Of a stretch of 58,066 nucleotides of DNA, positions 353-56,456 are shown piece after piece. Made by a program: the position numbers and the translations under genes. Location: positions 1-58,066 of IMG/VR virus record IMGVR_UViG_3300044734_000048; one strand, written 5' to 3'. The notes beneath the pieces were generated by a model. That model ran no database searches. It was given only the letters and a program-made list of their open reading frames with translations, and had not been told where the DNA came from. The DNA is from a virus. Its lineage: Duplodnaviria; Caudoviricetes. Positions within the stretch are counted from its first letter, which is position 1. Each line of letters opens with the position of its first letter.

Positions 353-1141
353 ATGAAAGTTAGCGTATTAGATAGCAGCAACTTTCTATTTTCCTTAGTT
401 GGAGAATGCCCCCACTGTCGCAGCAATTCGGTATTTATAAGGGTGGCGCAGCATCATGCTGTAGCCGTTGACAGCTATCAGTGGATGGTTTACACCATGA
501 TGCAATGTCAGGGATGCCAGCAGTTCATATTAGGCATTGTATTTAGACATCGAGAGGATTGGCGATATGTAGAGCATTATCCTCTAGGGACGCCCGATGA
601 TTCTGTTCATGAAAAAGTGCCAACACCTATAGCGGAAGATTTTTCCGAGTCCAAGCGTTGCCTATGGGTTAAGGCATACAGAGCATCGGTTGCGATGTGT
701 AGAAGGGCTGTACAATCAAGCTGCGATGATCTAGGCGCACAGGGGGGTAACTTATTTCAGCAGATAGATGATCTAGCTAAAAAAGGCATCATCACCGAAC
801 CGCTCAGGCAACTTGCACACAAGGTCAGGCTTGTCGCAAATAAGGAATTACATGCTAAGCATGATGATCTAGGAACTATCAAGGAAAGGGATGCCAAGTC
901 TATCATCGCTTTTACTCAAGAGTATTTTCACCATGTTTACGTGATGCCAGCGTTGCTTACTCCGGCTGTCCATACCCAACAACTGTCAGTCTTATTCACC
1001 GCAGCCCAAAAGCGGATGGTGGACGGAGGCTGTCGGCAGGCTTTGCTGCAAAAGATGCCTGCTTGTCTTTTGAAGACAGAGGGACTTCTAGAGAAAGTAG
1101 TTCCACATTTTTTACAGGTACGGACGGCTACAGTCTTGTGA
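353..1141 (+). CDS. DUF4145-like domain protein with N-terminal Zn-ribbon; C-terminus runs into an antisense HNH fragment
   Basis: CPHC...CQGC; 'AYRASVAMCRRAVQ...GGNLFQQIDDL...KVRLVANKELH' typical of DUF4145; ATG 353 preferred over 197. Confidence 0.7.
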   Translation: MKVSVLDSSNFLFSLVGECPHCRSNSVFIRVAQHHAVAVDSYQWMVYTMMQCQGCQQFILGIVFRHREDWRYVEHYPLGTPDDSVHEKVPTPIAEDFSESKRCLWVKAYRASVAMCRRAVQSSCDDLGAQGGNLFQQIDDLAKKGIITEPLRQLAHKVRLVANKELHAKHDDLGTIKERDAKSIIAFTQEYFHHVYVMPALLTPAVHTQQLSVLFTAAQKRMVDGGCRQALLQKMPACLLKTEGLLEKVVPHFLQVRTATVL

Positions 1142-2820: not shown

Positions 2821-5409
2821 TTAGAACGGACATTTCCAACTGCCGCGCGAACGAAAAGCCCACGCGCCTGAGCCACCGCCTGCACACGTCGTCGCAATAG
2901 CGCAGTCCGTACACCAGCTAAAAGTGCCATCCGCCACGCCCCCAGTTAATTGCGAAAAGGGTATCCCCGACTGATTGATGACACCCTGTCCGCTGATCCC
3001 AAGTGTGAGACTGCCTGTGCCGTTGCCGAATGCTGCCCCCCCCGTTCCCTGGTACTGGTTGAAACGCAGCGCACCTGTGCCTTGTGCTTCCATCCTGAGC
3101 GTTCCAAGCTTCGCCGAGATAACAGTTGATGAGTTGTCGTAGCCCACGCGAAGTTTGTCGCCCTGGATAGTGTTGGTGCGCGGTGTTCCCTCGAAATCTG
3201 TATTAGTGCCGCTGACGGGGAAATACTGAAAATTATTGTCGTGCGCCCCGGCTTCAAGATAGACAGTATAGGTCTGATTGCCGTCCAGATTCACGCCGGT
3301 ACTTCCGCATCCCATGACGCCGCTAGAGACGTACATCGCTGTGTCGAAGCCCTCAATCGAGCCGCCGTAGACGTGGTTGCCGTCGCCGTTTGAGAAAACG
3401 AAGCCGATGCTGCCCGCAACGACTGGCCCGCTCCCGGAGACGTTGCTGTTGACTAAATAGTTATCATTTGCCGCATCAGCCGCCGTGCCCGTTGTTTGCA
3501 TCGCGTACTTGAAGCCGGAGATTAAACCGGTGGTGAAGATGTTGTAGGCTGCGTAGGTAGTACCTGTGCCTGTCCCAGCTTCCACTAGGAATCCCTTACC
3601 GGTGGCCGTCGTGAAGTTTTGCTGCCGGAGCGACGTGCGGCTCACCGTGACGTAGACGCCATTTTTCGCATCTATGCCGCCCCCTGCTGGATTCGTGCAG
3701 AAGATCGCAATGTCTTCGATCAGGATGTCTTTTGTCTGCGACGCGAGGGTCGCATCGCCGATCAAGATTGCGTACCCTGTGCCAGTGTAGGTGAAGCCGG
3801 GTTGCGGCAAACTGTAGGTTGCGCTTGGCAGCCCCCTGCCTTGTGGGACTGTTCCCTTCAAAGAGAAGCCGTGCGCGCCTGCTGCGACCACAATCCTATT
3901 CGTCCCCATGTTAATCGCCGTCGTAGGAGAGGAGTCTACGAGGATACTTACACCCTGCTTACTGATGGTCAGGTCGGACGAAAGACTTTGAGAGCCGGTG
4001 AGCATCCGGGCGTCTATGACGCCCCCCGTGACAGGCAGCGCGGTAATTGCCGCCGCGACTTTCGCGCCCCAATCCGCGCCTGAGTAGCGATCTGCGAAAA
4101 CGACAGGAGGTGTGACGGGGAGACGTGTGTCAGTACCTTCAACGAGCGGGCCGCCGCCCGGACCCACGAGCGTCCCGTCGTTGCCGATCACCAACTTGTC
4201 CACGCCCCCTCGCTGAACCCTGAACGCACCAGCGCCGTTTGCATCCGAGTCGAAGTTAATCACCTCGTCGCCGGTCGCCGCGAAAGCTCCCGAAGTGGCC
4301 GAGCCGACATTCGTGCAGTTCGTACAAGTGACGTTCGCGAGCGTGCCGCCTGTGACGTTGACTTGCCCGGTCATCGTGCCGCCGACGCCGAGATTCCCTG
4401 AAACATTCGTGTTGCCCTGAATGTTACCGAGCAGATTGCCGCTGAAAAACGGTGCCGTGACCGTGCCCGCGAAATTAGGCGAGCCTGGCAGCGTGACGGG
4501 GACATGTGTCAGCCCTGACCCGTCGCCCGTCAGAACGCCTGAGACATTGAGATTGCCGCCGACATTCGCAGTCGAGCCGCTCTCAGTAATAATAGAGTTA
4601 GCGAACGTACTTCCGTTCCAGATAATGTGATGGCCTGCGGTCAGCAAAGGAAAAAGCTGCGCCGTTGTAGCTGCTGCGACCGCTGCTGTCAGTGCGTCCA
4701 CTTCAGCCTTTGAAGCGAAAGTAAATTGAGCGTCGAGATTCGCGTCCGTGATGCGGTGGCCGGTTAAGCTGATCGTAGTAGTTGATGCTGGAATATCATA
4801 AATTCCTATCAACTGTGTATTGCCCTTCTGTGCGTCATCAAACCAGACCTGATAATACTGAGCAGGAGAAACAGCGCGTGACGGATAGAGCGACACGTCG
4901 AACTGGCCGCTGCTGTTAAGTGAAGCTGAGACGCTCGCCTTCGCCGGGATAATCCCTGATGGACTAGTCGCCACCTGTGTGAGAAAGAAGCTCACGCGCC
5001 CGACGCGCGGCGCACCGCTTGGATCGAGCAGGCTATCAATGATGCGCGTCTTCGCAGCCGTCACCGTGAGCGTCACAGTGGCCGCAGCCGTCGTATCGCC
5101 TCCACTTGTGACCGTGTACTGAAAGCTATCTGAGCCTGTGTAGCCCACTGTCGGCGTGTAAACAAGCGCGCCCGTCGAGGTATTCAGATTAGAGAGAGCG
5201 CCGTGTGATGGGCTTGTCGTTGTAGCAAATGTCAGAGCCGTGCCGTCTGCATCACTCCCTTGAAGTTGAATTGCCGATTGCGCTGTAACCGGCACAGCGG
5301 TCGAAAAACTGACTGCGACGGGCGCTGCTGCCAGTGCGGTCAGCGGGAAGGCCACGATTAGCAGAGCCGCCACTAAAACAACACTGAGATATTTTCTATA
5401 AGCTCTCAT
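2821..5409 (-). CDS. Tail spike/fibre-like protein with signal peptide, Ig-like domain and pectin-lyase-like beta-helix
   Basis: N-terminal hydrophobic leader ending ALAA; 'GSDADG..LTF..PSHG.L..YTPT..GSDSFQYTVT' Ig/cadherin-like; 'GADWGAKVAAAI..GGVIDAR' beta-helix cap; position at end of tail module. Confidence 0.75.
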   Translation of the reverse strand: MRAYRKYLSVVLVAALLIVAFPLTALAAAPVAVSFSTAVPVTAQSAIQLQGSDADGTALTFATTTSPSHGALSNLNTSTGALVYTPTVGYTGSDSFQYTVTSGGDTTAAATVTLTVTAAKTRIIDSLLDPSGAPRVGRVSFFLTQVATSPSGIIPAKASVSASLNSSGQFDVSLYPSRAVSPAQYYQVWFDDAQKGNTQLIGIYDIPASTTTISLTGHRITDANLDAQFTFASKAEVDALTAAVAAATTAQLFPLLTAGHHIIWNGSTFANSIITESGSTANVGGNLNVSGVLTGDGSGLTHVPVTLPGSPNFAGTVTAPFFSGNLLGNIQGNTNVSGNLGVGGTMTGQVNVTGGTLANVTCTNCTNVGSATSGAFAATGDEVINFDSDANGAGAFRVQRGGVDKLVIGNDGTLVGPGGGPLVEGTDTRLPVTPPVVFADRYSGADWGAKVAAAITALPVTGGVIDARMLTGSQSLSSDLTISKQGVSILVDSSPTTAINMGTNRIVVAAGAHGFSLKGTVPQGRGLPSATYSLPQPGFTYTGTGYAILIGDATLASQTKDILIEDIAIFCTNPAGGGIDAKNGVYVTVSRTSLRQQNFTTATGKGFLVEAGTGTGTTYAAYNIFTTGLISGFKYAMQTTGTAADAANDNYLVNSNVSGSGPVVAGSIGFVFSNGDGNHVYGGSIEGFDTAMYVSSGVMGCGSTGVNLDGNQTYTVYLEAGAHDNNFQYFPVSGTNTDFEGTPRTNTIQGDKLRVGYDNSSTVISAKLGTLRMEAQGTGALRFNQYQGTGGAAFGNGTGSLTLGISGQGVINQSGIPFSQLTGGVADGTFSWCTDCAIATTCAGGGSGAWAFRSRGSWKCPF

Positions 5410-36147: not shown

Positions 36148-37057
36148 GGTTACATTTCGCTAGAAATCGCTTGCCGTCTTTCCAAACTTCCCTTTGACCG
36201 CTGGAGTCGCAGAGCGCACAGGCGTCAATGTGGGTGAGTTTTGCTGGTGGTGAGTTTACGGACGGCGATCCGCGCGCGGCGCGGCTGCGCTGCTCCGCGT
36301 ACATTCGGCAGATAGTCCCGACGTTTTTCGCAGGCGTGAGGTTGGCGTGGCACTGTTTGACGACGCTGCGGAAGAGTACAAGATCGTCAACGTCCGTCGC
36401 CTCAATCTCCGTCTGACCGGGAATGTGGGGAGGGTGTCCGTAGATTTCAGAAAAAACCGCAATGGCGGCGCATGCGCGTTGTTCTCTCTCTGAGGTAGTT
36501 TCTGAAGTAGTCTCTGAATCCTTATATTCGGGATTGAGATTGTGCATCTCCGTAGATTGAGATTCTTCATTTACGTAGATAGAGGTTGTTGATTTACGTA
36601 TATTAGATTTCTTAATCTCTGGAAGCTGAAGTTTATCGAGTTCGGCATCAACTAATTCATGGTTGCGGAAGTAGAGCGTAATGCCTTTTATCTTGTCGTG
36701 GTAGCTGCAATAGAATTTCTGCTTTACCTCTCCCAACTCGTTGACTTCAAAAAGTACGTTGCTGGCTAGCGCCTCATCGTATTGCTTTTTTGAAGTGTAA
36801 CGAACGCCAATAGAATCAAAGGCTGTGCGAAACTCTGCTGTGCTAAATCCTATTTCTTCAGTCCACGAATCGCCCTCTTTGTAGTGTGGTGAGTTCGGGC
36901 AAGGCTCCAAGAATTTGAAGAATCCCTCTGGATGCTTGGCAAACCAATAATCTAGTTGTTGCATGAGAATGCAGCCCGTCACGCTGCCCGCAAGTGCGCG
37001 TAGCGACTTGACGTAAGGGATAGAGTCTCGCGTGATCTGTAGTATCTTATTTTTCAT
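36089..37057 (-). CDS. Replication initiator protein
   Basis: Upstream of dnaB; N-terminal wHTH-like 'ILMQQLDYW'; internal iteron array. Confidence 0.75.
   Translation of the reverse strand: MKNKILQITRDSIPYVKSLRALAGSVTGCILMQQLDYWFAKHPEGFFKFLEPCPNSPHYKEGDSWTEEIGFSTAEFRTAFDSIGVRYTSKKQYDEALASNVLFEVNELGEVKQKFYCSYHDKIKGITLYFRNHELVDAELDKLQLPEIKKSNIRKSTTSIYVNEESQSTEMHNLNPEYKDSETTSETTSEREQRACAAIAVFSEIYGHPPHIPGQTEIEATDVDDLVLFRSVVKQCHANLTPAKNVGTICRMYAEQRSRAARGSPSVNSPPAKLTHIDACALCDSSGQREVWKDGKRFLAKCNHEGAEDERRQRSNVGTTAA
36532..36623. repeat. Four 23-bp iteron-like repeats (putative phage origin)
   Basis: gattgagattgtgcatctccgta / gattgagattcttcatttacgta / gatagaggttgttgatttacgta / tattagatttcttaatctctgga. 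Confidence 0.75.
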
Positions 37058-37740
37058 CAGATAAGATGTCTGCCTGTATATCGTCTGTAATTCGCACCCG
37101 CAACCTTCTTGTTGCGCCTCATTGCATAGAAGCGTAGTCTGCCCCTGATAACTTCCCTGCCTTCAAAATCATTGATAGCCACTACAGAAAGACATTTAAT
37201 GCGCTCGTTTGACAACTCAAGATCGAAAACATGCTTCTTTAGGTATCGGTTAAGCTGTTTGATTTGCTTCTCGTCGGATGTCAGAGTGAGGGCTTCGCGG
37301 ATTTTAGCAACCTTTTGTTGCACGCCACCATTGCAAATAAATTCTTGGGCGACTCTACGTAAAATGTGATTTTCTAGTTCATGTTTGTGAAAGTCGTCTA
37401 TAATTTTTACAAGCTTCTCGTCAAGTGCGTAATACTCGTCTAATGTAGAGACTTCAAATAAAGTAATGCGCTGCTCTACACACAGTTTTCGCTTGCAAGC
37501 GTCTCGGCGTACTTGGTCTCGAAAAGCGAAGGTTGTTCTGTGAAAGTGTGGGACATAGCGGTAGTGTTGCGCGCCCTGTATTTCAAAGGCGATTCGTAAT
37601 TCAGGAAGGTAGAAATCTAGCTCTAGCCGCTCGCCTTCTGGCGACGTTAACCATGCTGGCCTAATGTTCCGCTTAATACTAAACCCGCCAAATTGTTCTA
37701 AGATTACTTTACCGACATTGCTCTCAAGTTTTGATGGCAT
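37057..37740 (-). CDS. PD-(D/E)xK (DUF559/Vsr-like) endonuclease
   Basis: 'RLELDFYLPELRIAFEIQGAQHY...QVRRD..KRKLC'; likely start MPSKLE. Confidence 0.75.
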   Translation of the reverse strand: MPSKLESNVGKVILEQFGGFSIKRNIRPAWLTSPEGERLELDFYLPELRIAFEIQGAQHYRYVPHFHRTTFAFRDQVRRDACKRKLCVEQRITLFEVSTLDEYYALDEKLVKIIDDFHKHELENHILRRVAQEFICNGGVQQKVAKIREALTLTSDEKQIKQLNRYLKKHVFDLELSNERIKCLSVVAINDFEGREVIRGRLRFYAMRRNKKVAGANYRRYTGRHLI

Positions 37741-37783
37741 AAAAGAGTCAACCCCCCGCATCAACCATTCCGCGTATCGCGTG

Positions 37784-37918
37784 CCTGCCAAGGTCACACG
37801 GTCGTTTGAAAACGTTGATGCGGAGGGTTCGCCCCTCAGATAAAAGCCATCTGACTGACACGCTCCGCTAAAAACGGAAAACGCCGTGTCGTGACCTTGG
37901 CAGGTAACTCCGATTATA
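37784..37918 (-). ncRNA. Putative structured 5' leader RNA
   Basis: TATAAT at 37918-13; 14-bp perfect inverted repeat enclosing three short hairpins. Confidence 0.45.
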
Positions 37919-37955
37919 CTCTTTCTGAGGGAAGTTTCAATCACAGTCTACCTTT

Positions 37956-41524: not shown

Positions 41525-42772
41525 TCACAGATTTGCCTCTACTATCCTCTGCATTAAGAGAGGACAAACTGCGTTTCCTATCACCCTGCATGCCAGACTG
41601 TTCTTAATCGGTAGAGCGTAAGAGTCCGGGATAGATTGAAAGCGTGCGAGAGCGCGGGGTGTCATTGAAACAACTCTGCCCTGCGAGAGCCATGCTCTGA
41701 ACGGATGCCTTGTCTGGCTCGCGGTGGTAGTCACAACGGGACTATCACCATCCATCACTGCCAACTCGCCTTCGTAGTTCGCAGGCTTGCCATCCACGAT
41801 GAACGCTCTAACCTTGCGCGCGTCTCTAGTGTCCACCGTGAAGCACGGGCTTTTGTCTTCGCGTTGTGTCACCTTTGCGCCTTCGCTGTTTGTCTGGTCT
41901 GAAAGAATGAAAGCTCTTGGTATGCCGTTACCGTTGACCTTGATAGTGAATACCGGCTCGGCTTCGCCTCTGACAACGAACCTGTCATTGTCGGCATTGG
42001 GATGAGCGATGAAGGCGCGGGGCATGTGCGCCGGTCGCGTTATACTTGTAACCGTAAAGGCTGGCTCGCTTCGCGGTCGCCGAAGTTGAGCTTTTTGGAC
42101 ATTCTGGCTATCGTAAATTCCTTCCGCGTTCGTAATGCTTTCCGGCAGTCTCTTTAGTTGCCACTCCGCAAATTTCGATTCAGGCAGTGTGTGAATCAAA
42201 TCCTCAATAGCCGCATACCAGCCATTCCACGCAGGCAAAAACATGTCGCCATGCTGCCTGTGTGTGGCCTGTGGCTTCTCTACTTTGCGAATACGAGAGG
42301 CGACAAGGATTAAGCGTTTACGAGTCTGAGGCACGCCGTAATCGGCGCTGTTGAGATGCCAGAAGCGGAAGTTATACCCCTGAGATTCAAGCGCAGCGCA
42401 GATGATGCGGAATGACTCAAACTCACGATATTTCCAGACGTTTTCCAGGGAGAACACCGGAGACTGTAGGGCAGTAATCGCTCTTGCTGTGGCCTTCGCA
42501 GTTTCAATATCTGTGAACTCTTCTCTGGCATCCGATTTAGCGACAGAGGCATTGACACAGACAGGCGAGGCATGAAGCCAGTAGGGTGATTGAAGACGAG
42601 AGTAGTCAACGTCGCAGACGCTTTTGACGATGACATTTTCAAGACCGTTCATCTCTGCGACCGCCGCTATCTCAGCACCAATCTCAACTCCCCAGATTGG
42701 CTCAAGGCCAGCCATCTGCGCGCCCGTGCCCGCTAAGTCTCCACCTGTAAAAAGAGATGCAAAAGTCTTCAT
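41525..42772 (-). CDS. C5 cytosine DNA methyltransferase with repeated variable region
   Basis: FTGG motif I, SPVC motif IV, ENV, QTRKR, 'RFQSIPD', 'IGNAV'. Confidence 0.9.
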   Translation of the reverse strand: MKTFASLFTGGDLAGTGAQMAGLEPIWGVEIGAEIAAVAEMNGLENVIVKSVCDVDYSRLQSPYWLHASPVCVNASVAKSDAREEFTDIETAKATARAITALQSPVFSLENVWKYREFESFRIICAALESQGYNFRFWHLNSADYGVPQTRKRLILVASRIRKVEKPQATHRQHGDMFLPAWNGWYAAIEDLIHTLPESKFAEWQLKRLPESITNAEGIYDSQNVQKAQLRRPRSEPAFTVTSITRPAHMPRAFIAHPNADNDRFVVRGEAEPVFTIKVNGNGIPRAFILSDQTNSEGAKVTQREDKSPCFTVDTRDARKVRAFIVDGKPANYEGELAVMDGDSPVVTTTASQTRHPFRAWLSQGRVVSMTPRALARFQSIPDSYALPIKNSLACRVIGNAVCPLLMQRIVEANL

Positions 42773-47948: not shown

Positions 47949-48779
47949 TTATGCCGTCTCTCTTAAATCATCGAAGAAATCCGTTAGCTCGTTGACGAAC
48001 CTTTCTAGCTCGTCTCGACAAGACGCAAGATCGTCTCTGAAATTAAATTGCTCTTGTTGAGTCATTCCAGCGGAGAATGAAACGGCTCCGCCTTTTGTTT
48101 TAATTTGATAAATAACTTCCTGGATAGGTGATAGTTGGCTACGTTTACTAGGCTTTGGTAGTGGAGCTTTCTTAATTGATGAAATGTTTGAGCGTACTGT
48201 TTCTCTTTTCTTCTCAGGAAGAGAGTTGAGAGTCTTGGCTGTTTCGATAGCTTGCTTTTGTGGAGCGTCTTTTAGTTCTGGATAAGTTTCTACTGCTTTG
48301 ACGTGGGCTTTAGCGTTGTGAACAGTGGAGCGCGGGATGCCTACTCGCTCGGCTACCTTTTCCTCGCTGATGGCCTTCTCAGGTCTGCCGATTTTAGGGG
48401 TATCCGACTTTTCGTCAGACTTTGACGGAAATTCACTTTGGATAATCTTTTCAGCAACTTGCGTTAATCGGACTAAATTTTTAGAGACTTCAAAAGGTGT
48501 TAAATCTTTGCGCTGTAAATTCTCTTCTAATTCAATCTCGTGTCGCTCATCTTCGGTCAGATCGGAGTACGGGCGACAATCTATTTCAGTCCATCCGAGA
48601 CTTGTACAAGCGACTAGTCTTCTCTCACCTGCTACTAGATTATTTTTATCATCCACTATCAGGGGATGGAATAATCCGTACTTGGCGATGCTGGCGGCCA
48701 GAGCTTCGATATTGCCGAAGTCTTCTCTGCGGCGAGTGCCTACGTTTATATCGGAGACTGCGATTGATTGGACGTTCAC
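47949..48779 (-). CDS. ParB/Srx N-terminal domain plus HTH protein
   Basis: 'LAASIAKYGLFHPLIV..LVAGERRL..A...ELEENLQRKDL'. Confidence 0.88.
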   Translation of the reverse strand: MNVQSIAVSDINVGTRRREDFGNIEALAASIAKYGLFHPLIVDDKNNLVAGERRLVACTSLGWTEIDCRPYSDLTEDERHEIELEENLQRKDLTPFEVSKNLVRLTQVAEKIIQSEFPSKSDEKSDTPKIGRPEKAISEEKVAERVGIPRSTVHNAKAHVKAVETYPELKDAPQKQAIETAKTLNSLPEKKRETVRSNISSIKKAPLPKPSKRSQLSPIQEVIYQIKTKGGAVSFSAGMTQQEQFNFRDDLASCRDELERFVNELTDFFDDLRETA

Positions 48780-49012
48780 GCTGTTAGCCTTTCCTCGTCT
48801 TCAATGCTGGCAAAAGGGCGTCCGACCTCCGATACAGAAACGTCCAAGTATTTAGCTAACTTGATTCTGACTTCTGGATAGACGAATGGCTCACGGCGAT
48901 TAACAACTCGGCTTATGACGCCGGGCGTTGTTTTCCACTTGCGCGCCAGTTTCACAAAGTTGTCGCCGTTCTTCATTACAGAAATCTTGATGTCTAGCGG
49001 TGAAAGTGGCAT
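48776..49012 (-). CDS. Cro-like HTH protein
   Basis: AGGAG RBS; divergent from the repressor; 'LARKWKTTPGVISRVV'. Confidence 0.75.
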   Translation of the reverse strand: MPLSPLDIKISVMKNGDNFVKLARKWKTTPGVISRVVNRREPFVYPEVRIKLAKYLDVSVSEVGRPFASIEDEERLTA

Positions 49013-49053
49013 AGTCACTCCTTTATCTAGCCTGCTCTTGCAGGTGTAATCTA

Positions 49054-49083
49054 AGGATAATGCAACTAGGTTGCAATTGTCAA
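49054..49083 (-). promoter_or_regulatory. Leftward early promoter with operator
   Basis: TTGACA-N18-TATCCT; spacer holds the TGCAAC-N3-GTTGCA palindrome. Confidence 0.8.
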
Positions 49084-49095
49084 GAAGAAAATATT

Positions 49096-49938
49096 GTGTC
49101 TGAGAATTTGCCTCACAAATCAGGTAGGAAACGGCAACACAAGCCCGTATCGGAAGAGGCTGCACGGGTAGGCGCACGGATTACTCAAGCGCGCGGCAAA
49201 ACACCGCTCACGAAAGTAGAGCAGGACTTATCTATTTCGCACCAAGCTTTGTCGAAGATAGAAAGCGGTAGGTCTAACCCTAGCGATCCTAGAACCAAGC
49301 GAACGCTGATGCGTTTGGCAGAATATTATAGAGACGATTTTGATCTTGACTGGCTAACGCCCTACGCAAGCGGCAAAAAGCCAGCGCAAGATAAAAGACC
49401 AAAGGACAATCTTCTAAAGTTCCCTGACGCACAGCAGGTCAAGGCACTTCCTATTCCTATCATCGGACGGATCGCAGCCGGAGAGCCGATTGAAGCCATA
49501 GAGGAAGATAAAGATAAGGTTGTCTATATAGCCGAAACAGAGCTAGAAGGTATTAACAATCCTCGCGCGTTGCGCGTTGTAGGCGATAGCATGAAAGGTC
49601 TGTATATTTTGCACAATGACCTAGTTATCATCGGAGATAGCTCTATCTATCAAAATCGTATTGTTGCTGTGTATGTAATTGAGAACGGCAATTATTCCGG
49701 CACACTCAAGAGATGGAAGCGGAGAGGCAGAAAAGTTGAATTGCAGCCTGCTAATCCTAAATATAAATCCAAAACATTCACCTCACAGTCAAAGATAACA
49801 CTTGAGGTCTTTGGAGTAGTGTTCAAGCTACTGCGAAATTATGACTACTCAAGACCTTTAGACAGCGAGGCGTTTGGGGCGGCAGTTGGAGTACCGGGCG
49901 CAGAGGGAGCAAACGAGGATGACCTGTTTGTGGTGTAA
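49096..49938 (+). CDS. CI/LexA-type repressor (XRE HTH plus S24 peptidase)
   Basis: 'ISHQALSKIESG', Ala-Gly site 'IAAGEP', Ser 'GDSM', Lys 'TLKR'. Confidence 0.92.
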   Translation: MSENLPHKSGRKRQHKPVSEEAARVGARITQARGKTPLTKVEQDLSISHQALSKIESGRSNPSDPRTKRTLMRLAEYYRDDFDLDWLTPYASGKKPAQDKRPKDNLLKFPDAQQVKALPIPIIGRIAAGEPIEAIEEDKDKVVYIAETELEGINNPRALRVVGDSMKGLYILHNDLVIIGDSSIYQNRIVAVYVIENGNYSGTLKRWKRRGRKVELQPANPKYKSKTFTSQSKITLEVFGVVFKLLRNYDYSRPLDSEAFGAAVGVPGAEGANEDDLFVV

Positions 49939-50347
49939 TAAAGAATTAAAAGTCGGAGAGTTTGAGCGGGGGAATCTTTGTTCGGAATGTGAGCAGGTTT
50001 CTACAGGGATACCGAATTTATCAAGTGAACAGCTTGACTTGCTGCCCTTTGGGTTAATCGAACTTGATAAGACCGGAACTATTGTTGCATTCAACGAATC
50101 CGAAGAAAGGTTATCGCTCCGATCTAAAGATGAGGTTATCGGAAAGAACTTCTTTGCCGACGTAGCACCGTGCGCGGATGTGCAAGACTACAAAGGTCGG
50201 TTTGATGAATTTCTGAGAGGGTCAAAGCTATCGGAACAGTTCGATTATATTTATTACTTTGGCGCTCGTGCTGTGAAGGTTCAGCTTACTTTCCTGCGCG
50301 TCAATCAACGCCTTGCTCTTGTTTTAAGTAAAAGAAATGAACGATAA
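49919..50347 (+). CDS. pyp: Photoactive yellow protein-like PAS protein with N-terminal Cys4 motif
   Basis: 'QLDLLPFGLIELDKTGTIVAFNESE...VIGKNFFADVAPC' aligns ungapped to PYP residues 22-69. Confidence 0.88.
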   Translation: MTCLWCNKELKVGEFERGNLCSECEQVSTGIPNLSSEQLDLLPFGLIELDKTGTIVAFNESEERLSLRSKDEVIGKNFFADVAPCADVQDYKGRFDEFLRGSKLSEQFDYIYYFGARAVKVQLTFLRVNQRLALVLSKRNER

Positions 50348-50360
50348 AGGAGTCCTCACA

Positions 50361-51107
50361 ATGAAGAGATTGGTAACGCTATTTATAGCAATCTCAATCT
50401 GTAGCTTGTTCGTCTTTGCTCAAGAGCAGGAACATCCGGCAGTTGCCATTAACTTTAAGGACTTCAATAAAAAGCCGATCAACGGCACGCTTGTCAGTTT
50501 GGACTTGACGCAAATTTCAGTTGAGACGGATGATATTCACCACCTCGGACTAAAGATTGATTTACGACAAGTGGCAAGTATCATCTTCTTCGATATTCCT
50601 CTTACTCTCAAAACTGATAAGCCAATTTCCGATAGCAACTCGAAAATGGTTACTTGCGGTGCAACATCTGTAAAGAGGCCGGAACTGCGCGGGCTTAGGC
50701 TGGGGATGAGCATCAGCGACGTGAAGACGGCAAAGCCCGAACTGCGCCTCGTCATTGATGCCCCTGATAGCGTAGGCCAGCAGACCGCTTTCGTTGTAGG
50801 CGCGGAAGAAGGAGTCCGTTCACTTGATTTAGAGTTTTTAGATGGTAGCCTTACATCCATCAAAGTAACCTATGACCATTCTGTTTCGTGGAATAATGAG
50901 CAAGAATTTCTTTCACGATTAGCAGACGCTTTCGGATTGCCTACGCCCTGGAATGGCTATTTGAAGTGTGAGGGCTTGAACTTAGTTGCTGACTATAGCT
51001 ACGGGATTGCGCCGAAAATCCGCTTGTACGACCCAAACTCTAGCCAAATAATTAAGAAGCGGCGCGCGGATACTGAAGAGAAGAAACGGCGGGAATTTAA
51101 GCCTTAG
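50361..51107 (+). CDS. Secreted/periplasmic protein (possible superinfection exclusion)
   Basis: AAGGAG RBS; signal peptide ending VFA; 'LRGLRLGMSISDVK'. Confidence 0.65.
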   Translation: MKRLVTLFIAISICSLFVFAQEQEHPAVAINFKDFNKKPINGTLVSLDLTQISVETDDIHHLGLKIDLRQVASIIFFDIPLTLKTDKPISDSNSKMVTCGATSVKRPELRGLRLGMSISDVKTAKPELRLVIDAPDSVGQQTAFVVGAEEGVRSLDLEFLDGSLTSIKVTYDHSVSWNNEQEFLSRLADAFGLPTPWNGYLKCEGLNLVADYSYGIAPKIRLYDPNSSQIIKKRRADTEEKKRREFKP

Positions 51108-51199
51108 CCGCCAGCGGTTGGATTATATAAGAGAGATGCGTTCTCTAATCTTTTCTAAACCAATTCCAGATAGATAAAATCCAGAGGAAGCCTAATACA

Positions 51200-51673
51200 A
51201 TGCAAGTACTGATGTTGATCGCCGCAGTGCTTGGGCCATTGCCATCGTTAATTAAAGTGGTAAGAAGCTGGCGTGCAGAGAAGCCACTTAGAAAAGAGAA
51301 GGCAACTGTTAGGAAAACTGGTAAACGAACTTTCTTCCAAGCATACTGGTTGCAACTATTATTCATTGCCTTATCTGCCTCTTTGTTGATTTGGGAACTT
51401 TCCAGACCCGGCCTGCCTGATAAGTTCTCTGTTCTAGTCATAGTCATTAGCGTGGCCTCCATACTCTTTCAATGTGTAATTATCTTGATCTTCCAAGCGG
51501 TCGCTGCTATCCGACGCGCGCTCATTAGACAATTAGACGTAAACGATACTGTACTTATAGCCTTCAAATCAGTCTCAACAGCGATAGAAGAAATTGTTAC
51601 TCATATTCCCGATGAGCCTCAAGGCATAACCAGCAAGCTCCGATCCACTCTAAAGAATTTGCTTGGTGACTAA
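51200..51673 (+). CDS. Membrane protein
   Basis: Two to three hydrophobic segments. Confidence 0.55.
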   Translation: MQVLMLIAAVLGPLPSLIKVVRSWRAEKPLRKEKATVRKTGKRTFFQAYWLQLLFIALSASLLIWELSRPGLPDKFSVLVIVISVASILFQCVIILIFQAVAAIRRALIRQLDVNDTVLIAFKSVSTAIEEIVTHIPDEPQGITSKLRSTLKNLLGD

Positions 51674-51808: not shown

Positions 51809-51837
51809 TTGCTATTGCAACCTAGTTGCATTATACT
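51809..51837 (+). promoter_or_regulatory. Rightward early promoter with operator
   Basis: TTGCTA-N17-TATACT; same 21-nt operator as 49057-49077. Confidence 0.8.
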
Positions 51838-51908
51838 GCCTTTGCACTTGCAAGAGAAAGACAGCCACTAGCAAGTAATGTTTCGCAAAAGTCTTTGCAA
51901 GAGGCCAT

Positions 51909-52614: not shown

Positions 52615-52850
52615 CGACATTAAGCCAGGCGCATTACGTCGAAATTAAATGTCCACGCTGCGAAGCATGGCTCAATTTCCTTGTCGGCGTCGAACATGAC
52701 GGAGACGAGAACGGCGTCTATTCAAACCTTGCGGCTGAGTTAGAAGCTCAGAGTTGCAACTGTGATTTAGACGACGAAGAGATCGAAGAAGCAGGGCGGA
52801 TTGCAAAGGACGAGTACGAAACACCTGAACGTCCCGCCTTTCCCGTGTAA
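52611..52850 (+). CDS. Acidic Zn-ribbon protein
   Basis: CPRC..CNC; ATGA overlap. Confidence 0.5.
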   Translation: MTTLSQAHYVEIKCPRCEAWLNFLVGVEHDGDENGVYSNLAAELEAQSCNCDLDDEEIEEAGRIAKDEYETPERPAFPV

Positions 52851-52899
52851 CGCTGGCGCGCGGCAAACGCCCTTTTCACCTGCGGAGGACTGTATAGCA

Positions 52900-53766
52900 A
52901 TGAAAACAATCACAATTAAAAATCAATCCGAACTTGATGCCCTGCCAGATCGCTTTGAAGAGTACACCGTAATTCATATTAAGGGTACACAGAGGGTGAT
53001 TGTCCGACGGGCATGGGAGAACTCGTCTGTCGTGGCACGGGGGAACTCGTCTGTCGTGGCACGGGAGAACTCGTCTGTCGAGGCATGGGAGAACTCGTCT
53101 GTCGTGGCATGGGGGAACTCGTCTGTCGTGGCATGGGGGAACTCGTCTGTCGTGGCATGGGGGAACTCGTCTGTCGTGGCACGGGGGAACTCGTCTGTCG
53201 AGGCATGGGAGAACTCGTCTGTCGAGGCATGGGGGGACTCGTCTGTCGAGGCACGGGGGAACGTTTGCGTTCGTCTCTATTCCGACGCCGCTACTGTTTT
53301 ATTGTTCGCCTTCGCCGTTTGCTTTGCGATGGTCAAAGCGAAGATTCAAAAGAAATCAAAGACCTGCACTGTGATCGTTCCCACCATCGCAGAAGGGCTA
53401 GAGGGTTGGCTAGAAAACAACGCTGTAGCACCGAGCGGTAAATCTATAATCCTCTACAAACGAGTTTCCAAAGATTTCAAAACCCAAGAAGGGGCTGAAA
53501 GAGAAACCCTGTGGGCGATTGGCGCAACACTAAAGCACCACAGCCCTGATCTTGAAAGCGCAGAATGTGGTGGCGGTAAATTTCACTTCTGCTCACGTCC
53601 CTACTTCTGCGATGAGTTTCGCTCAACCGCTGGCGATAAACACATAGCCTGCCAAGTGCCACTCAAGGCGTTGTACGCATGGCCGCGCCCGACCTATCCG
53701 CACAAGATCGGCGGCACAGAGGCGAAGGTCTTATATGTGTGTGATCGCTTCGGAAAGAAAAACTAA
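52900..53766 (+). CDS. Octapeptide-repeat phage protein
   Basis: GGAGG RBS; A(W/R)(E/G)NSSV(V/E) repeats; C-terminal 'LYKRV...ECGGGKFHFC' domain. Confidence 0.8.
   Translation: MKTITIKNQSELDALPDRFEEYTVIHIKGTQRVIVRRAWENSSVVARGNSSVVARENSSVEAWENSSVVAWGNSSVVAWGNSSVVAWGNSSVVARGNSSVEAWENSSVEAWGDSSVEARGNVCVRLYSDAATVLLFAFAVCFAMVKAKIQKKSKTCTVIVPTIAEGLEGWLENNAVAPSGKSIILYKRVSKDFKTQEGAERETLWAIGATLKHHSPDLESAECGGGKFHFCSRPYFCDEFRSTAGDKHIACQVPLKALYAWPRPTYPHKIGGTEAKVLYVCDRFGKKN
53011..53262 (+). repeat. 10.5 x 24-bp tandem repeat
   Basis: Consensus GCAYGGGRGAACTCGTCTGTCGWG. Confidence 0.97.
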
Positions 53767-55021: not shown

Positions 55022-55306
55022 ATGAGCGAACTATTAAATGAAAAGTTACTTGAACAGAAGATGCGGGCTATCGCAGAAGAGGTTTATCGTGAGAGCGCGT
55101 TTATACATCCGCCAGCGCCCGTTGCGAAGAAACTTCTGACGGCTCAAGAGGTCAGCGAAATCACGGGCTGGCACATCAATCACATCTACAGACTTATTCG
55201 ACAGAACCGACTACCCAAAGTGCCTAACCTGGGGCGGGTTGTTCGCTTTGACCCGGAAGTAATTGAGAAAATCAAGGAAAATGGTTTGCAAGACTTGGCG
55301 GCATGA
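55022..55306 (+). CDS. xis: Excisionase-like HTH protein
   Basis: 'LLTAQEVSEITG...IYRLI...LP...VRFDP'; directly before the integrase. Confidence 0.85.
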   Translation: MSELLNEKLLEQKMRAIAEEVYRESAFIHPPAPVAKKLLTAQEVSEITGWHINHIYRLIRQNRLPKVPNLGRVVRFDPEVIEKIKENGLQDLAA

Positions 55307-55322
55307 AAGATAATCCACGCTC

Positions 55323-56456
55323 ATGATAAAGCGTCTTGGAAAAGAGAAATACCTGGTCAGAGTGTCGCTTGGCACGATCAATGGCAAGGTCAAACTCCAC
55401 AATCGAACCATCTATGGCAAGCGCGAGGAAGCCGAATCCTATGAGCGCAAGATTATCTCCCAACGTAAACAAGGACTGCCGATCACACCAACCAAGCTAA
55501 CTCTTGAGGTTTATCTAAAAAGGTGGCTTGATAATCGCATCTCCAAGAAAGTGATTCGCCCGAACACGGCAGAAGAGTACGAGAATGTTCTAACACGTTA
55601 TGTCATTCCGCGATGCGGCTCAACTAAATTAGCTGACATCCGTTCTTCTCATGTAGAAGACGTGATGGAATCCATGACCGAGAAAGGCTTAAGTCCTAAT
55701 ACGATTCGCCATTGCGTCACGGTCTGGCACTCAGCCTTGAAACGAGCTATCAAGCAGGGATTGATTCACGCCAATCCGATAGACGCGGTAGAACTTCCGG
55801 CCAAACAGCGACCACAGGTTCGAGCGTTTAATCGAGATGAAGCATTGAAGTTTTTAGATAGCTCGCGGGAAGACCGCTACCATGTTCTTTTTAACCTTGC
55901 CCTCTATGCCGGGATGAGGCCGGAGGAATTGGTAGGACTTCAGAGAGCGAATGTTGATCTCAAGGCTTCTATTATTAAAGTCAGAACCGTTATTGTTTGG
56001 CTCAAAGGCTCTCGCTGGGAATTTTCGACACCTAAAACCAAGCGAGGCTATAGAGATATTCCCATTCCGAGATTCGTCTCTAATCTATTAAAGGAACACA
56101 TGCGCCAGCAATCGGAGCAGAGCATGAAGGTCAGGCGGTTCTACCGGGACGATCTTGACTTGGTTTTCGCAGACCGTCTTGGGCTTCCCCTCAGATATGA
56201 GCATATCAATGAAGACCACATTAACCCGATCTGCGCTCTTGCGGAACTAGGGCACGCCAGCCTCTACACCTTTCGTCACACGTTTGCCTCCCTACTGTTA
56301 GAAGCCGGAGAGAATGTCAAGGTAGTAAGTGAAATGTTGGGACATGCCAGCGTCGTTATCACAATGGATGTATATCAGCATGTCTTACCTTCTATCAGCG
56401 AAGGCGCTAGTCGTAAGCTCGAAAAACTGTTGGAAGTCTCAGCACCTTTGCACTAA
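55323..56456 (+). CDS. int: Tyrosine integrase
   Basis: GMRPEEL, K(T)K, YTFRHT, LGHAS, DVYQH. Confidence 0.96.
   Translation: MIKRLGKEKYLVRVSLGTINGKVKLHNRTIYGKREEAESYERKIISQRKQGLPITPTKLTLEVYLKRWLDNRISKKVIRPNTAEEYENVLTRYVIPRCGSTKLADIRSSHVEDVMESMTEKGLSPNTIRHCVTVWHSALKRAIKQGLIHANPIDAVELPAKQRPQVRAFNRDEALKFLDSSREDRYHVLFNLALYAGMRPEELVGLQRANVDLKASIIKVRTVIVWLKGSRWEFSTPKTKRGYRDIPIPRFVSNLLKEHMRQQSEQSMKVRRFYRDDLDLVFADRLGLPLRYEHINEDHINPICALAELGHASLYTFRHTFASLLLEAGENVKVVSEMLGHASVVITMDVYQHVLPSISEGASRKLEKLLEVSAPLH

What the first reader, a model, noticed from the sequence alone, without database searches (positions are those of the whole stretch)
49096..51673. Photoactive-yellow-protein homologue overlapping the prophage repressor gene: candidate light/ligand-sensing lysogeny switch
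Seen: ORF 49919-50347 overlaps the CI/LexA repressor stop by 20 nt and aligns without gaps to Halorhodospira PYP residues 22-69 (recalled from memory). It keeps E46, R52, GKNFF and the chromophore-binding C69 (VAPC), with Y42->F and T50->S, and has an N-terminal CxxC-x14-CxxC motif in place of the PYP cap. It lies in the cassette between the two operator-bearing early promoters, so it should be expressed in the lysogen. Known: PYP binds p-coumaric acid as a thioester at C69 and signals by N-terminal unfolding; chromophore supply needs TAL and pCA ligase, neither seen in this window. Inference: the phage may couple blue light, or plant-derived p-coumarate in soil, to repressor stability or induction, or may alter host signalling. 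I know of no described phage PYP-repressor module.
Basis: partly seen in the sequence, partly recalled or inferred. Interest (0 to 1): 0.92.

Follow-up and report, generated by a model that had tools for sequence, protein, structure and literature searches.

The report
Photoreceptor gene in phage lysogeny switch

Summary
ORF 49919-50347 encodes a 142-aa protein with an N-terminal four-Cys zinc ribbon followed by a PYP-type PAS domain. It matches solved PYPs at E 2e-19, and the AF2 model superposes on PYP at TM 0.84. It keeps Cys69, Glu46 and 16 of 17 family-conserved residues, with Tyr42 changed to Phe. It overlaps the stop of an HTH+S24 (LexA/CI-type) repressor by 20 nt. It lies inside a lambda-like immunity cassette bounded by two copies of the palindrome TGCAAC-N3-GTTGCA. 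New evidence: all 6 viral records that carry a ZnR-PYP (the window plus 5 IMG/VR contigs) place it directly 3' of a regulator gene on the same strand, although these regulators are of at least four different types. Among more distant relatives, at least 12 protein clusters fuse a DNA-binding domain to ZnR-PYP, and 8 of these N-domains resemble those phage regulators. Viral and fused forms share one tree clade, separate from cellular ZnR-PYPs. Best reading (about 0.45): a lysogen-expressed sensor that works with the repressor. Chromophore binding, light response and any effect on induction are untested. No TAL or pCL gene is in any of the phages, and the host is unknown. I found no published phage PYP.

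The parts
48776..49012 (-). cro-like small HTH gene, first gene of the leftward early/lytic operon. The ORF is listed as 48776-49177; the start at 49012 is inferred from homologues.
   Evidence: 64% identical to an ORF in L081 and 59% to one in L090, both in the same divergent position. The L090 homologue matches Pfam HTH_35 at E 7e-5, below cut-off. Followed by a ParB-like gene at 47949-48779.
49035..49077 (.). OR-like operator region: one arm of a 43-nt inverted repeat, holding the palindrome TGCAACTAGGTTGCA (49061-49075) in the spacer of a minus-strand promoter-like site (TTGACA-18-TATCCT, 49083..49054).
49096..49938 (+). cI/LexA-type repressor: weak HTH at the N-terminus plus an S24 autopeptidase domain. 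An alternative ATG start at 49060 gives 292 aa.
   Evidence: Pfam Peptidase_S24 E 2e-17; HTH_3 E 8.7e-4, below cut-off. NCBIfam lexA E 2.3e-19, below cut-off. PHROG 4 'transcriptional repressor' E 1.8e-21. In the 26-row alignment A4, numbered on the 292-aa form, Ser177, Lys217 and Gly141 are invariant and Ala140 is nearly invariant.
49919..50347 (+). ZnR-PYP gene (142 aa): four-Cys zinc ribbon at residues 3-24 (49925-49990), cap helices plus PYP-type PAS core at residues 25-139.
50361..51107 (+). Cassette gene of unknown function with an N-terminal signal-peptide-like hydrophobic segment. The ORF is listed from 50337; ATG 50361 is preceded by AAGGAG.
   Evidence: Sequence read. No Pfam, NCBIfam, PHROG or PADLOC family. 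Not conserved in the other viral loci.
51200..51673 (+). Cassette gene for a small hydrophobic (membrane-like) protein of unknown function.
   Evidence: Translation. No family hit. Not conserved in the other viral loci.
51809..51856 (+). OL-like operator/promoter: second arm of the inverted repeat (51814-51856), with the palindrome TGCAACCTAGTTGCA (51816-51830) between TTGCTA and TATACT (51809..51837). It faces the rightward genes that end with xis and int.
55022..56456 (+). Excisionase-like gene (55022-55306) and tyrosine integrase (55323-56456), which mark the right end of the prophage. A host M48 peptidase gene starts at 56744.
   Evidence: HTH_17 E 1.1e-8. PHROG 1 integrase E 3e-74. Peptidase_M48 E 3.5e-32.

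Best explanation
The gene encodes a genuine PYP-family sensor preceded by a zinc ribbon (ZnR-PYP). It is a built-in, lysogen-expressed component of the phage immunity cassette and works together with the repressor.

Shown: the fold and pocket residues, the position between OR-like and OL-like operators, the overlap with the repressor stop, the recurrence of that position in 6 of 6 viral records, and the existence of DNA-binding-domain + ZnR-PYP fusions in the same clade.

Inferred: it is co-transcribed and translationally coupled with cI from a PRM-like promoter. It carries p-coumaric acid on Cys85 when the host supplies p-coumaroyl-CoA. Blue light, acting through Glu62 protonation and release of the N-terminal cap that carries the zinc ribbon, changes its association with the repressor (or its oligomeric state). 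This adds a light or chromophore input to a switch that already has an SOS input through the S24 domain. In fused relatives, ZnR-PYP takes the place of the S24 domain as the signal-responsive C-terminal domain of the repressor. The direction of the effect (light favouring induction or favouring lysogeny) cannot be told from sequence.
For: (1) PYP identity.
- TIGR02373 E 1.4e-26; solved PYPs E 1.9e-19, ungapped over PYP residues 9-107.
- AF2 model pLDDT 81; Foldseek top hits are all PYP, TM 0.83-0.88 normalised to the target.
- 7 of 9 pocket residues and 16 of 17 family-conserved residues listed in PMC12826048 are identical.
- In 29 ZnR-PYPs the four Cys, N43, E46, F62, F63, A67, P68 and C69 are invariant.
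- Natural Phe42 occurs in about 9% of PYPs. In Y42F the chromophore hydrogen bond shifts to residue 50 (PMC9664959 passages). Residue 50 is Ser in 5 of the 6 viral proteins.

(2) Immunity cassette.
- Operator palindrome exactly twice, flanking cI, ZnR-PYP and two further ORFs.
- Equivalent inverted-repeat pairs flank the regulator+PYP cassettes of L081, L090 and L091.

(3) Conserved linkage. In 6 of 6 viral ZnR-PYP records the gene is directly 3' of a regulator gene.
- Window, L089, L091: an S24 repressor (Pfam 2e-17, 1.4e-16, 1.9e-12).
- L081: an XRE HTH protein plus an M78/ImmA-type peptidase.
- L090: a 237-aa protein opposite cro and ParB homologues.
- L082: a 95-aa RHH-like protein.
- 4 of 6 start codons overlap the upstream stop; the other two gaps are 9 and 25 nt.
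- PYP is the only window gene shared by all 5 loci. The window's TerL and major capsid protein found nothing in the 5 records.

(4) Fusions.
- 13 of the 150 best representative clusters have an N-extension of at least 59 aa before ZnR-PYP.
- P0037 has HTH_3/HTH_31 at E 3e-9.
- The N-extensions of 8 of the 13 match the regulators found next to viral PYPs. Examples: P0026 to the L089 repressor, 48%, E 2e-11; P0041 to L091, 42%, E 2e-10; P0103 to the L082 protein, 42%, E 6e-11; P0037 to the L081 XRE, 31%, E 8e-5. The database held only 11 sequences.
- The AF2 model of P0033 shows strand-helix-helix, a disordered linker, then ZnR and PYP.

(5) Tree. One branch (support 93/95) unites all 6 viral proteins, the window's close relatives and 12 of 13 fusions, apart from cellular Geothrix-type ZnR-PYPs and 12 of the 13 non-ZnR PYPs (the 13th, P0018, is a 120-aa sequence inside the clade).
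Against: - No chromophore, spectrum, binding or expression data exist.
- No TAL (PF00221), pCL (TIGR02372) or AMP-binding gene is in the window or in the 5 viral records, two of which are rated 100% complete.
- The host genome is not available.
- Among 5 genomes with cellular ZnR-PYP, only one has an adjacent lyase+ligase pair.
- 5 acidobacterial genomes with the closest M48 flank homologues have no pCL-type hit at E<=1e-20. That search's controls did not ring, so this is weak.
- Tyr42 is Phe, Phe96 is Tyr, and the TIGR02373 score (93) is below the equivalog cut-off (143.05).
- The window's CI is complete with a Ser-Lys dyad and needs no extra sensor.
- The regulators next to PYP belong to different families, so one conserved PYP-repressor interface is not obvious.
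- The slot just after a repressor gene is a classic place for lysogen-expressed accessory genes (lambda rexAB, recalled).
- The genomic context of the fusions could not be fetched, so they are not shown to be phage repressors. Three IMG/VR scans for them found none.
- The tree clade falls short of the tool's star threshold, and the root is midpoint only.
- Cellular ZnR-PYPs work without phage repressors.
Confidence: 0.45

Rival explanations
1. Lysogenic-conversion gene (moron). ZnR-PYP is a functional photoreceptor that is only expressed from the repressor transcript. It acts on host pathways such as biofilm, motility or stress signalling, giving the lysogen a light response without touching the phage switch.
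For: - The slot after cI is where lambda keeps rexAB (recalled).
- The window cassette also holds two unrelated accessory ORFs.
- Cellular ZnR-PYPs exist in Acidobacteriota and Gemmatimonadota. In 7 of 8 such loci they lie near a SpoIIE/PP2C phosphatase gene, so a host partner may exist.
- Known PYPs regulate host behaviour (PMC12826048 abstract).
- The repressor types vary while PYP stays.
Against: - An ordinary moron would be expected in varied positions. Here 6 of 6 lie directly after the regulator gene, usually with overlapping stop and start codons.
- The same clade contains fusions to DNA-binding domains that resemble those regulators.
- The viral clade is separate from the cellular ZnR-PYPs. 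In 401 Acidobacteriota genomes the best match was only 42% identical.
Confidence: 0.28
2. The protein is coupled to the repressor but is not a light sensor. The PYP-like pocket and Cys report a chemical signal, such as availability of p-coumaroyl-CoA or hydroxycinnamates from plant litter, or thiol/redox state. Light plays no role.
For: - The source is a soil metagenome, where light is limited.
- No TAL or pCL gene is in any phage record, so loading would depend on host hydroxycinnamate metabolism (inference).
- Tyr42 is lost in all six viral proteins: Phe in five, Val in L082.
- PMC9664959 proposes neofunctionalisation towards redox sensing for some PYP variants (abstract passage).
Against: - That proposal concerns variants with changed key residues. 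Here Glu46, Cys69 and 16 of 17 conserved residues are kept.
- PMC9664959 states that PYPs with a single Y42F change still bind pCA and function (passage).
- Surface soils and crusts do receive light (general knowledge).
Confidence: 0.15
3. Decoy or anti-repressor aimed at other phages. A ZnR-PYP lacking a DNA-binding domain forms mixed oligomers with the DBD-ZnR-PYP repressors of competing prophages. It poisons them, or confers cross-immunity, in phage-phage competition.
For: Standalone and DBD-fused forms coexist in one clade. The window's own repressor uses an S24 domain, not a PYP domain.
Against: This is pure inference. There is no evidence that PYP domains of this clade oligomerise. The fusions are only 34-47% identical to the window protein. 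The co-occurrence of the two kinds of phage in one host is unknown.
Confidence: 0.07
4. A decaying or non-functional hitch-hiker: a PAS remnant with no role.
For: One further viral hit, L083, is a ZnR-less relative in which Cys69 is replaced by Phe.
Against: There are 35 invariant columns among 9 close homologues of 50-72% identity, including all key residues. Intact ORFs occur in 6 viral records from different metagenome ids. The fold is predicted with confidence.
Confidence: 0.02

Closest known systems
Photoactive yellow protein family (Halorhodospira halophila PYP; Ppr-PYP of Rhodospirillum centenum)
   Same: PAS fold; ungapped alignment over PYP residues 9-107; Cys69, Glu46, Asn43, Phe62/63 and Ala67-Pro68 are kept; single-domain size.
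   Different: - An N-terminal four-Cys zinc ribbon is added.
- Tyr42 is Phe, Thr50 is Ser and Phe96 is Tyr.
- The score is below the TIGR02373 equivalog cut-off.
- It is encoded by a phage next to its repressor. [quoted passage not shown]
Lambda immunity region (OL/PL - rexB - rexA - cI - PRM/OR/PR - cro), recalled from textbook knowledge
   Same: Divergent cro-like and cI-like genes. Duplicated operators bound a cassette whose first gene is the repressor, followed by accessory genes on the same strand. int and xis lie at the far end.
   Different: The gene in the rexA position is a PAS/PYP sensor, not an exclusion system. The operators are a different palindrome. No PADLOC defence family matches any cassette gene.
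VqmA(Phage) of vibriophage VP882: a phage-encoded PAS-domain receptor that controls the lysis-lysogeny decision (seen only as search listing and abstract starts; mechanism recalled)
   Same: A phage-encoded PAS sensor positioned to feed an environmental signal into the switch. The fused relatives (DBD+ZnR+PYP) have the same one-component logic.
   Different: VqmA binds a quorum-sensing autoinducer and has its own HTH. The window protein has no DNA-binding domain, has a covalent-chromophore-type pocket, and sits beside the repressor rather than driving an antirepressor gene.
ImmR/ImmA-type repressor plus metalloprotease modules (ICEBs1 and many phages; recalled)
   Same: In L081 the ZnR-PYP gene directly follows an XRE HTH gene and a Peptidase_M78 (IrrE/ImmA-like) gene.
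   Different: The window uses an S24 self-cleaving repressor instead. No third sensor component is known for ImmR/ImmA modules.
Light-regulated one-component DNA-binding photoreceptors (EL222 LOV-HTH, CarH/LitR B12-MerR; recalled) and a MerR+PAS (PYP-like) cluster of Myxococcota seen in the ESM Atlas
   Same: A photosensory domain is coupled to a DNA-binding domain. The Atlas lists a 187-aa cluster with MerR_1 in 97% and PAS in 82% of members, whose model matches the window protein's at TM 0.77.
   Different: The chromophore, DNA-binding folds (RHH or XRE) and domain order differ. The zinc-ribbon linker and the phage immunity context are not described for those systems.

Membership tests
PYP family (PAS_PYP as defined in PMC9664959: PYP homologues that keep Cys69) | PAS fold closest to PYP by sequence and structure | tested here: met
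   33 of the 36 PDB sequences at E<=1 are PYP or PYP-derived, best 1.9e-19. Foldseek top hits are all PYP, TM 0.83-0.88 normalised to the target.
PYP family | Cys69, the thioester attachment site | tested here: met
   C85 aligns with Cys69. It is invariant in 29 ZnR-PYPs.
PYP family | Glu46, the proton donor | tested here: met
   E62 aligns with Glu46 and is invariant in A1 and A2.
PYP family | Tyr42 hydrogen bond to the chromophore | tested here: not met
   F58 occupies this position. Phe42 occurs naturally in 8.9% of 984 homologues (PMC12826048 section 5). PMC9664959 passages say a single Y42F change retains pCA binding.
PYP family | The set of 17 residues conserved in more than 70% of members (PMC12826048) | tested here: met
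   16 of 17 are identical; 7 of 9 pocket residues are identical.
PYP family | NCBIfam TIGR02373 equivalog cut-off | tested here: not met
   93 bits against a cut-off of 143.05. According to PMC9664959 this model recovers only about 20% of PYP homologues.
PYP family | Covalent p-coumaric acid, blue absorbance and a photocycle | not testable with these tools
   Needs expression with TAL and pCL, followed by spectroscopy.
PYP family | Chromophore supply (TAL and pCL) in the same organism | tested here: inconclusive
   None is in the window or in the 5 viral records. The host genome is not held. Only 5% of pyp operons carry TAL, and pCA uptake has been proposed (PMC12826048 section 8).
LexA/CI-type S24 self-cleaving repressor (upstream gene 49096-49938) | S24 domain with a Ser-Lys dyad and an Ala-Gly cleavage site, plus an N-terminal DNA-binding domain | tested here: met
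   Peptidase_S24 E 2e-17. Ser177, Lys217 and Gly141 are invariant and Ala140 nearly invariant in 26 rows. The HTH match is weak: HTH_3 at 19.7 bits, below the cut-off of 23. RecA-stimulated cleavage is not testable here.
Lambda-like immunity cassette | Divergent repressor and cro genes, with repeated operators bounding the cassette | tested here: met
   Similar inverted pairs occur in L081, L090 and L091. None was found in L089 or L082.
Known anti-phage defence systems (PADLOC) | Match to any defence-system protein model | tested here: not met
   No family at E<=0.01 for ZnR-PYP, the two window cassette ORFs or 5 cassette ORFs of L081, L090 and L091.
One-component PAS transcription factor (VqmA-like logic) | Sensor and DNA-binding domain in one polypeptide | tested here: not met
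   The window protein has only ZnR+PAS. Relatives P0037 (HTH_3 E 4e-9) and 11 others do carry an N-terminal strand-helix-helix or HTH extension.

The most novel reading that the evidence does not exclude
A lineage of temperate soil phages uses a p-coumaric-acid photoreceptor as an input to the lysis-lysogeny switch. ZnR-PYP would be a light-gated partner of the repressor and, in fused relatives, its light-gated C-terminal domain in place of the SOS-sensing S24 domain. Daylight at the soil surface, or the supply of p-coumaroyl-CoA from plant litter, would then set repression against induction. This would be the first virus-encoded PYP, the first photoreceptor-controlled prophage switch, and the first defined output partner for a single-domain PYP.
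Probability: 0.35. Interest if true: 0.93.

Novelty: new variant of a known kind. Interest (0 to 1): 0.85.

Why it matters
- The downstream partner of single-domain PYP has been an open question. The 2025 survey calls the signal transduction chain 'an important gap in knowledge' (abstract). A PYP that is translationally coupled to a phage repressor, or fused to a repressor's DNA-binding domain, offers a concrete output that can be tested by EMSA and reporter assays.
- For phage biology it would add light to the short list of signals (SOS, arbitrium, host autoinducers) that prophages read. Sunlight is a major killer of free virions, so the link is ecologically plausible (general knowledge).
- The fused forms would be compact natural light-switchable repressors of possible use in optogenetics.
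- If the protein instead acts only on the host, it is still the first PYP reported on a virus.

Tried and rejected
- Complex prediction of CI (A4) with ZnR-PYP (A2): no verdict, score 0.00 in two runs, controls not run. I count it as no evidence either way.
- The look-up of sequencing runs: two soil-metagenome DNA holders that may be the source of this DNA; no RNA holder listed.
- INPHARED phages, tblastn with P0001: no match.
- The search for homologous proteins 'longer' (250-2000 aa) for P0001: none scored. The fused forms came only from the exhaustive representative search.
- Metagenome scan with A1: 4 loci (L085-L088), all matching only residues 31-126, so without the zinc ribbon. Their contexts were not examined.
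- IMG/VR scans for the fused forms (A3, P0033, P0026): none found.
- RHH assignment of the N-extensions: the profile A5 against the PDB gave only weak hits (CdbA E 0.26, ORF56 E 0.97). Pfam found nothing for the L082 95-aa, L089 60-aa or L091 66-aa proteins. I therefore write 'RHH-like', based on the sequence pattern and the strand-helix-helix of the P0033 model.
- A CI-PYP fusion by ribosomal frameshift was considered. The PYP frame is +1 relative to cI and open from 49874, but I saw no canonical slippery site in 49861-49938. Homologues start two residues before the first Cys. Overlapping stop and start codons (translational coupling) are the simpler reading.
- Host identification:
  - In 401 Acidobacteriota genomes the PYP best hit was 42% identical and of the cellular type. 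Two long open frames there (L104, L105) proved to be cellular-type ZnR-PYPs, not fusions.
  - The host-flank M48 peptidase finds full-length matches of 58-68% in that phylum. No other phylum was compared, so 'acidobacterial host' is only a lead.
  - The ESM Atlas names Gemmatimonadota and Acidobacteriota for the nearest clusters.
- L083 (viral hit, 31% over residues 43-139) has no zinc ribbon and has Phe in place of Cys69. It was left out of the 6-of-6 count.
They might list S24/LexA neighbours or zinc-ribbon forms that the main texts do not mention.

Full report
**What the window is.** The window is an IMG/VR provirus record of 58,066 bases. Its minus strand carries a siphovirus-like set of genes: tape measure, major head protein (PHROG 1005, E 5e-83), portal, large terminase, DnaB-like helicase and a DNA methyltransferase. 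The plus strand at the right end carries the region in question. That region is followed by an excisionase-like gene (HTH_17, E 1e-8) and a tyrosine integrase (PHROG 1, E 3e-74). A host-like M48 peptidase gene starts at 56744. No tRNA gene is present.

**Check of the observation.**
- The repressor ORF (49096 or 49060 to 49938) has a Peptidase_S24 domain (E 2e-17). Its HTH match is weak (HTH_3, 19.7 bits, below cut-off). It also matches PHROG 4 'transcriptional repressor' (E 1.8e-21).
- In a 26-row alignment with its homologues, numbered on the 292-aa form, Ser177, Lys217 and Gly141 are invariant and Ala140 is nearly invariant. These are the LexA-type catalytic dyad and cleavage site as I recall them.
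- The next ORF starts at ATG 49919, 20 nt before the repressor's stop. Its 142-aa product has C3-x2-C6-x14-C21-x2-C24 followed by a PAS domain.
- It matches NCBIfam TIGR02373 'photoactive yellow protein' at E 1.4e-26. The score of 93 bits is below the equivalog cut-off of 143.05.
- Against the PDB, 33 of the 36 sequences at E<=1 are PYP, Ppr-PYP or PYP-derived (best 1.9e-19). The alignment is ungapped from PYP residue 9 to 107.
- Of the residues that PMC12826048 (section 5) lists as the pCA pocket, 7 of 9 are identical. Of its 17 residues conserved in more than 70% of 984 PYPs, 16 are identical; only Tyr42 differs.
- An AF2 model built on 29 relatives has mean pLDDT 81. Its best Foldseek matches in the PDB are all PYP, with TM 0.83-0.88 normalised to the target.
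- One correction: the cap helices are still present, because PYP residues 9-25 align. The zinc ribbon is an N-terminal addition rather than a replacement of the cap.

**The cassette.**
- A 43-nt inverted repeat has arms at 49035-49077 and 51814-51856.
- The perfect palindrome TGCAAC-N3-GTTGCA occurs only at 49061-49075 and 51816-51830 in the whole window. With one mismatch allowed, 0.19 matches are expected; 2 of 100 shuffles reach two.
- The first copy lies in the spacer of a minus-strand promoter-like site that faces the cro-like gene. The second lies in the spacer of a plus-strand site that faces the genes leading to xis and int.
- Between the two copies lie cI, ZnR-PYP and two ORFs with no family match. 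One has a signal-peptide-like N-terminus and the other is hydrophobic.
- This is the layout of the lambda immunity region, recalled from textbook knowledge, with ZnR-PYP in the rexA position. Expression in the lysogen follows from that analogy and is not shown. No RNA run holds the region (listed under tried and rejected).

**Relatives.**
- The word-indexed search found 8 homologues of 50-72% identity and similar length. All carry the four Cys, Phe42, Glu46, Ser50 and Cys69.
- The exhaustive search of 1.84 billion representatives found 1,211 proteins at E<=1e-3 and 407 at E<=1e-10.
- In GTDB species genomes, 8 of the 80 loci kept (L001-L008: Holophagaceae, Geothrix, other Acidobacteriota and a Gemmatimonadaceae MAG) have a zinc ribbon before the PYP domain. 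These keep Tyr42.
- Seven of those eight loci hold a gene for an approximately 850-aa SpoIIE/PP2C phosphatase with a PDZ domain close to the PYP gene. None showed phage genes among the neighbours I scanned.

**Phage relatives.** Two pattern scans of IMG/VR gave five contigs with a ZnR-PYP, from five different metagenome ids: L081 (59% identity), L089 (43%), L090 (39%), L091 (38%) and L082 (29%). Two of the records have terminal repeats and are rated 100% complete. A further hit, L083, lacks the ribbon and has Phe for Cys69, so it was left out. In all six records, counting the window, the gene lies directly 3' of a regulator gene on the same strand.

| Record | Upstream gene(s) | Evidence | Junction with PYP start |
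|---|---|---|---|
| Window | HTH + S24 repressor | Pfam S24 E 2e-17 | overlap 20 nt |
| L089 | RHH-like + S24 repressor | Pfam S24 E 1.4e-16 | overlap 11 nt |
| L091 | S24 repressor | Pfam S24 E 1.9e-12 | overlap 4 nt |
| L081 | XRE HTH protein, then Peptidase_M78/ImmA-like protein | HTH_3 E 4e-8; M78 E 3e-12 | gap 25 nt |
| L090 | 237-aa protein with no Pfam family, divergent from homologues of the window's cro (59%) and ParB (38%) | | gap 9 nt |
| L082 | 95-aa protein with no Pfam family, RHH-like sequence pattern | | overlap 4 nt |

- Inverted-repeat pairs like the window's OR/OL flank the regulator+PYP cassette in L081, L090 and L091. None was found in L089 or L082.
- Genes downstream of PYP differ in every record.
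- Within 8 kb on either side, PYP is the only window gene shared by all five loci. The S24 domain is shared with two, cro with two and ParB with one.
- The window's terminase and major head protein found nothing in the five records, although that tool warns that an empty answer is weak.
- The association therefore survives replacement of the repressor and of most of the rest of the genome.

**Fusions.**
- Among the 150 best representative clusters, 13 have an N-terminal extension of 59-172 aa in front of the zinc ribbon and PYP domain.
- P0037's extension is an XRE-type HTH (HTH_3 E 4e-9, HTH_31 E 3e-9).
- I compared the 13 extensions by BLASTP with the 11 regulator and cro proteins of the viral loci. 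This is a tiny database, so the E-values flatter. Eight of the 13 gave hits at E<1e-3:
  - P0026 to the N-terminus of the L089 repressor: 48% over 50 aa, E 2e-11.
  - P0041, P0033 and P0042 to the N-terminus of the L091 repressor: 42%, 38% and 31%.
  - P0103 and P0067 to the L082 95-aa protein: 42% and 32%.
  - P0037 to the L081 XRE protein: 31%, E 8e-5.
- The AF2 model of P0033 shows strand 22-24, helices 27-42 and 49-56, a disordered linker at 77-110, then the ribbon and the PYP fold.
- All 12 fusions in alignment A3 keep Glu46 and Cys69.
- In these proteins the ZnR-PYP module thus occupies the place that the S24 domain occupies in the L089 and L091 repressors. L082 looks like the same protein split in two.
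- By the usual gene-fusion argument, this suggests that the separate proteins work together.
- The contexts of the fusions could not be fetched, so I cannot say that they are phage repressors.

**Tree.** In an IQ-TREE analysis of 66 ZnR-PYP and PYP sequences, one branch (ultrafast bootstrap 93, SH-aLRT 95) groups several sets together. These are all six viral proteins, the window's close relatives, P0015, P0030, 12 of the 13 fusions and one 120-aa sequence without the ribbon. The Geothrix-type cellular ZnR-PYPs and the other non-ribbon PYPs lie on the other side. The root is at the midpoint only, and the support is just under the tool's star threshold.

**Chromophore.**
- Neither an aromatic ammonia-lyase nor a pCL-type or any AMP-binding ligase is encoded in the window or in the five viral records.
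- Of five genomes with cellular ZnR-PYP, one (G003) has a second lyase next to a TIGR02372-like ligase (131 bits). The others show only one lyase of about 610 bits, which I take to be histidase.
- PMC12826048 (section 8) reports TAL in only 5% and pCL in 32% of 113 predicted pyp operons. It raises the possibility of pCA uptake from the environment.
- The two runs that hold this DNA are soil metagenomes.
- The loading route is therefore open. Host hydroxycinnamate-CoA ligases are a plausible source, but that is inference.

**Literature.**
- Full-text searches gave no paper describing a phage PYP among those listed:
  - 'photoactive yellow protein' with 'prophage': 2 papers.
  - 'photoactive yellow protein' with 'bacteriophage': 31 papers, 15 listed.
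  - 'phage-encoded' + 'photoreceptor' + 'lysogeny': 3 papers.
  - 'prophage induction' + 'blue light' + 'photoreceptor': 3 papers.
  - 'temperate phage' + 'light-sensing' + 'repressor' + 'PAS': 1 paper.
- PMC12826048 has no occurrence of phage, zinc, LexA, SpoIIE or repressor in its science text. Its only 'bacteriophage' is in an author biography. [quoted passage not shown] I read its abstract and sections 4, 5, 6 and 8.
- PMC9664959 has no occurrence of phage, virus or zinc (passages only).
- Supplements could not be opened.

**Reading.**
- The most economical account is that ZnR-PYP is a sensor module belonging to the immunity switch of a group of temperate soil phages. In some it is a separate protein made with the repressor; in others it is the repressor's own C-terminal domain.
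- How the window's standalone protein acts on a CI that already has an S24 domain is not known. It could bind CI, bind DNA through the ribbon, or change oligomerisation. A co-fold gave no verdict (listed under tried and rejected).
- The main rival is a lysogenic-conversion photoreceptor that merely rides on the repressor transcript.
- I put about 0.45 on the switch-coupled light or chromophore sensor, 0.28 on the host-directed moron, and 0.15 on a repressor-coupled sensor that is not photic. The rest goes to an anti-rival decoy or to decay.

Noticed in passing
L001, L002, L004-L008 (e.g. L006:9723-12272, minus strand): Cellular zinc-ribbon PYPs of Holophagae-like Acidobacteriota lie close to a conserved gene of about 850 aa for a SpoIIE/PP2C phosphatase with a PDZ domain (7 of 8 loci; 68-89% identity to the L006 copy). 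This is a candidate partner-switching output for these PYPs. The word 'SpoIIE' does not occur in PMC12826048.
   Followed up: partly
G003 contig C84:117-2571 (genome of L005): A second aromatic ammonia-lyase (524 bits) lies directly beside a TIGR02372-like CoA ligase (131 bits, E 2.5e-38). This is a candidate tal-pcl pair in one of five genomes with a cellular ZnR-PYP.
   Followed up: no
window 52801-53766 (+): A 321-aa ORF (PHROG 15773, unknown function, E 1.2e-19) contains about a dozen tandem 8-residue repeats of the type ENSSV(V/E)A(R/W/W)G. All three forward frames and one reverse frame stay open across the repeat.
   Followed up: no
L083:7764-8258 (+): A viral contig encodes a PYP-like PAS protein without a zinc ribbon and with Phe in place of Cys69 (DVAPF). 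This is a Cys-less 'PYP-like' form on a phage.
   Followed up: partly
window 47949-48779 (-) and L090:6089-6973 (-): A ParB-like gene (ParB_N E 5e-7; PHROG 12047 E 9e-25) directly follows the cro-like gene in both phages (38% identity). This is an unusual second gene for an early lytic operon.
   Followed up: no
ESM Atlas cluster (structure row 3): A 72-member cluster of 187-aa proteins, commonest in Myxococcota, combines MerR_1/HTH_17 with a PAS domain. Its model matches the window protein's at TM 0.77. This is another DNA-binding + PYP-like architecture.
   Followed up: no
window 37057-37944 (-) and 41525-42772 (-): An HNH/homing-endonuclease-like gene sits between replication genes, and a DNA methyltransferase lies in the early region.
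   Followed up: no
window 197-1141 (+) and 2821-5409 (-): The left end holds a DUF4145 protein. It also holds an 862-aa protein with Big_9 and cadherin-like Ig domains next to the tail genes, possibly a receptor-binding or decoration protein.
   Followed up: no
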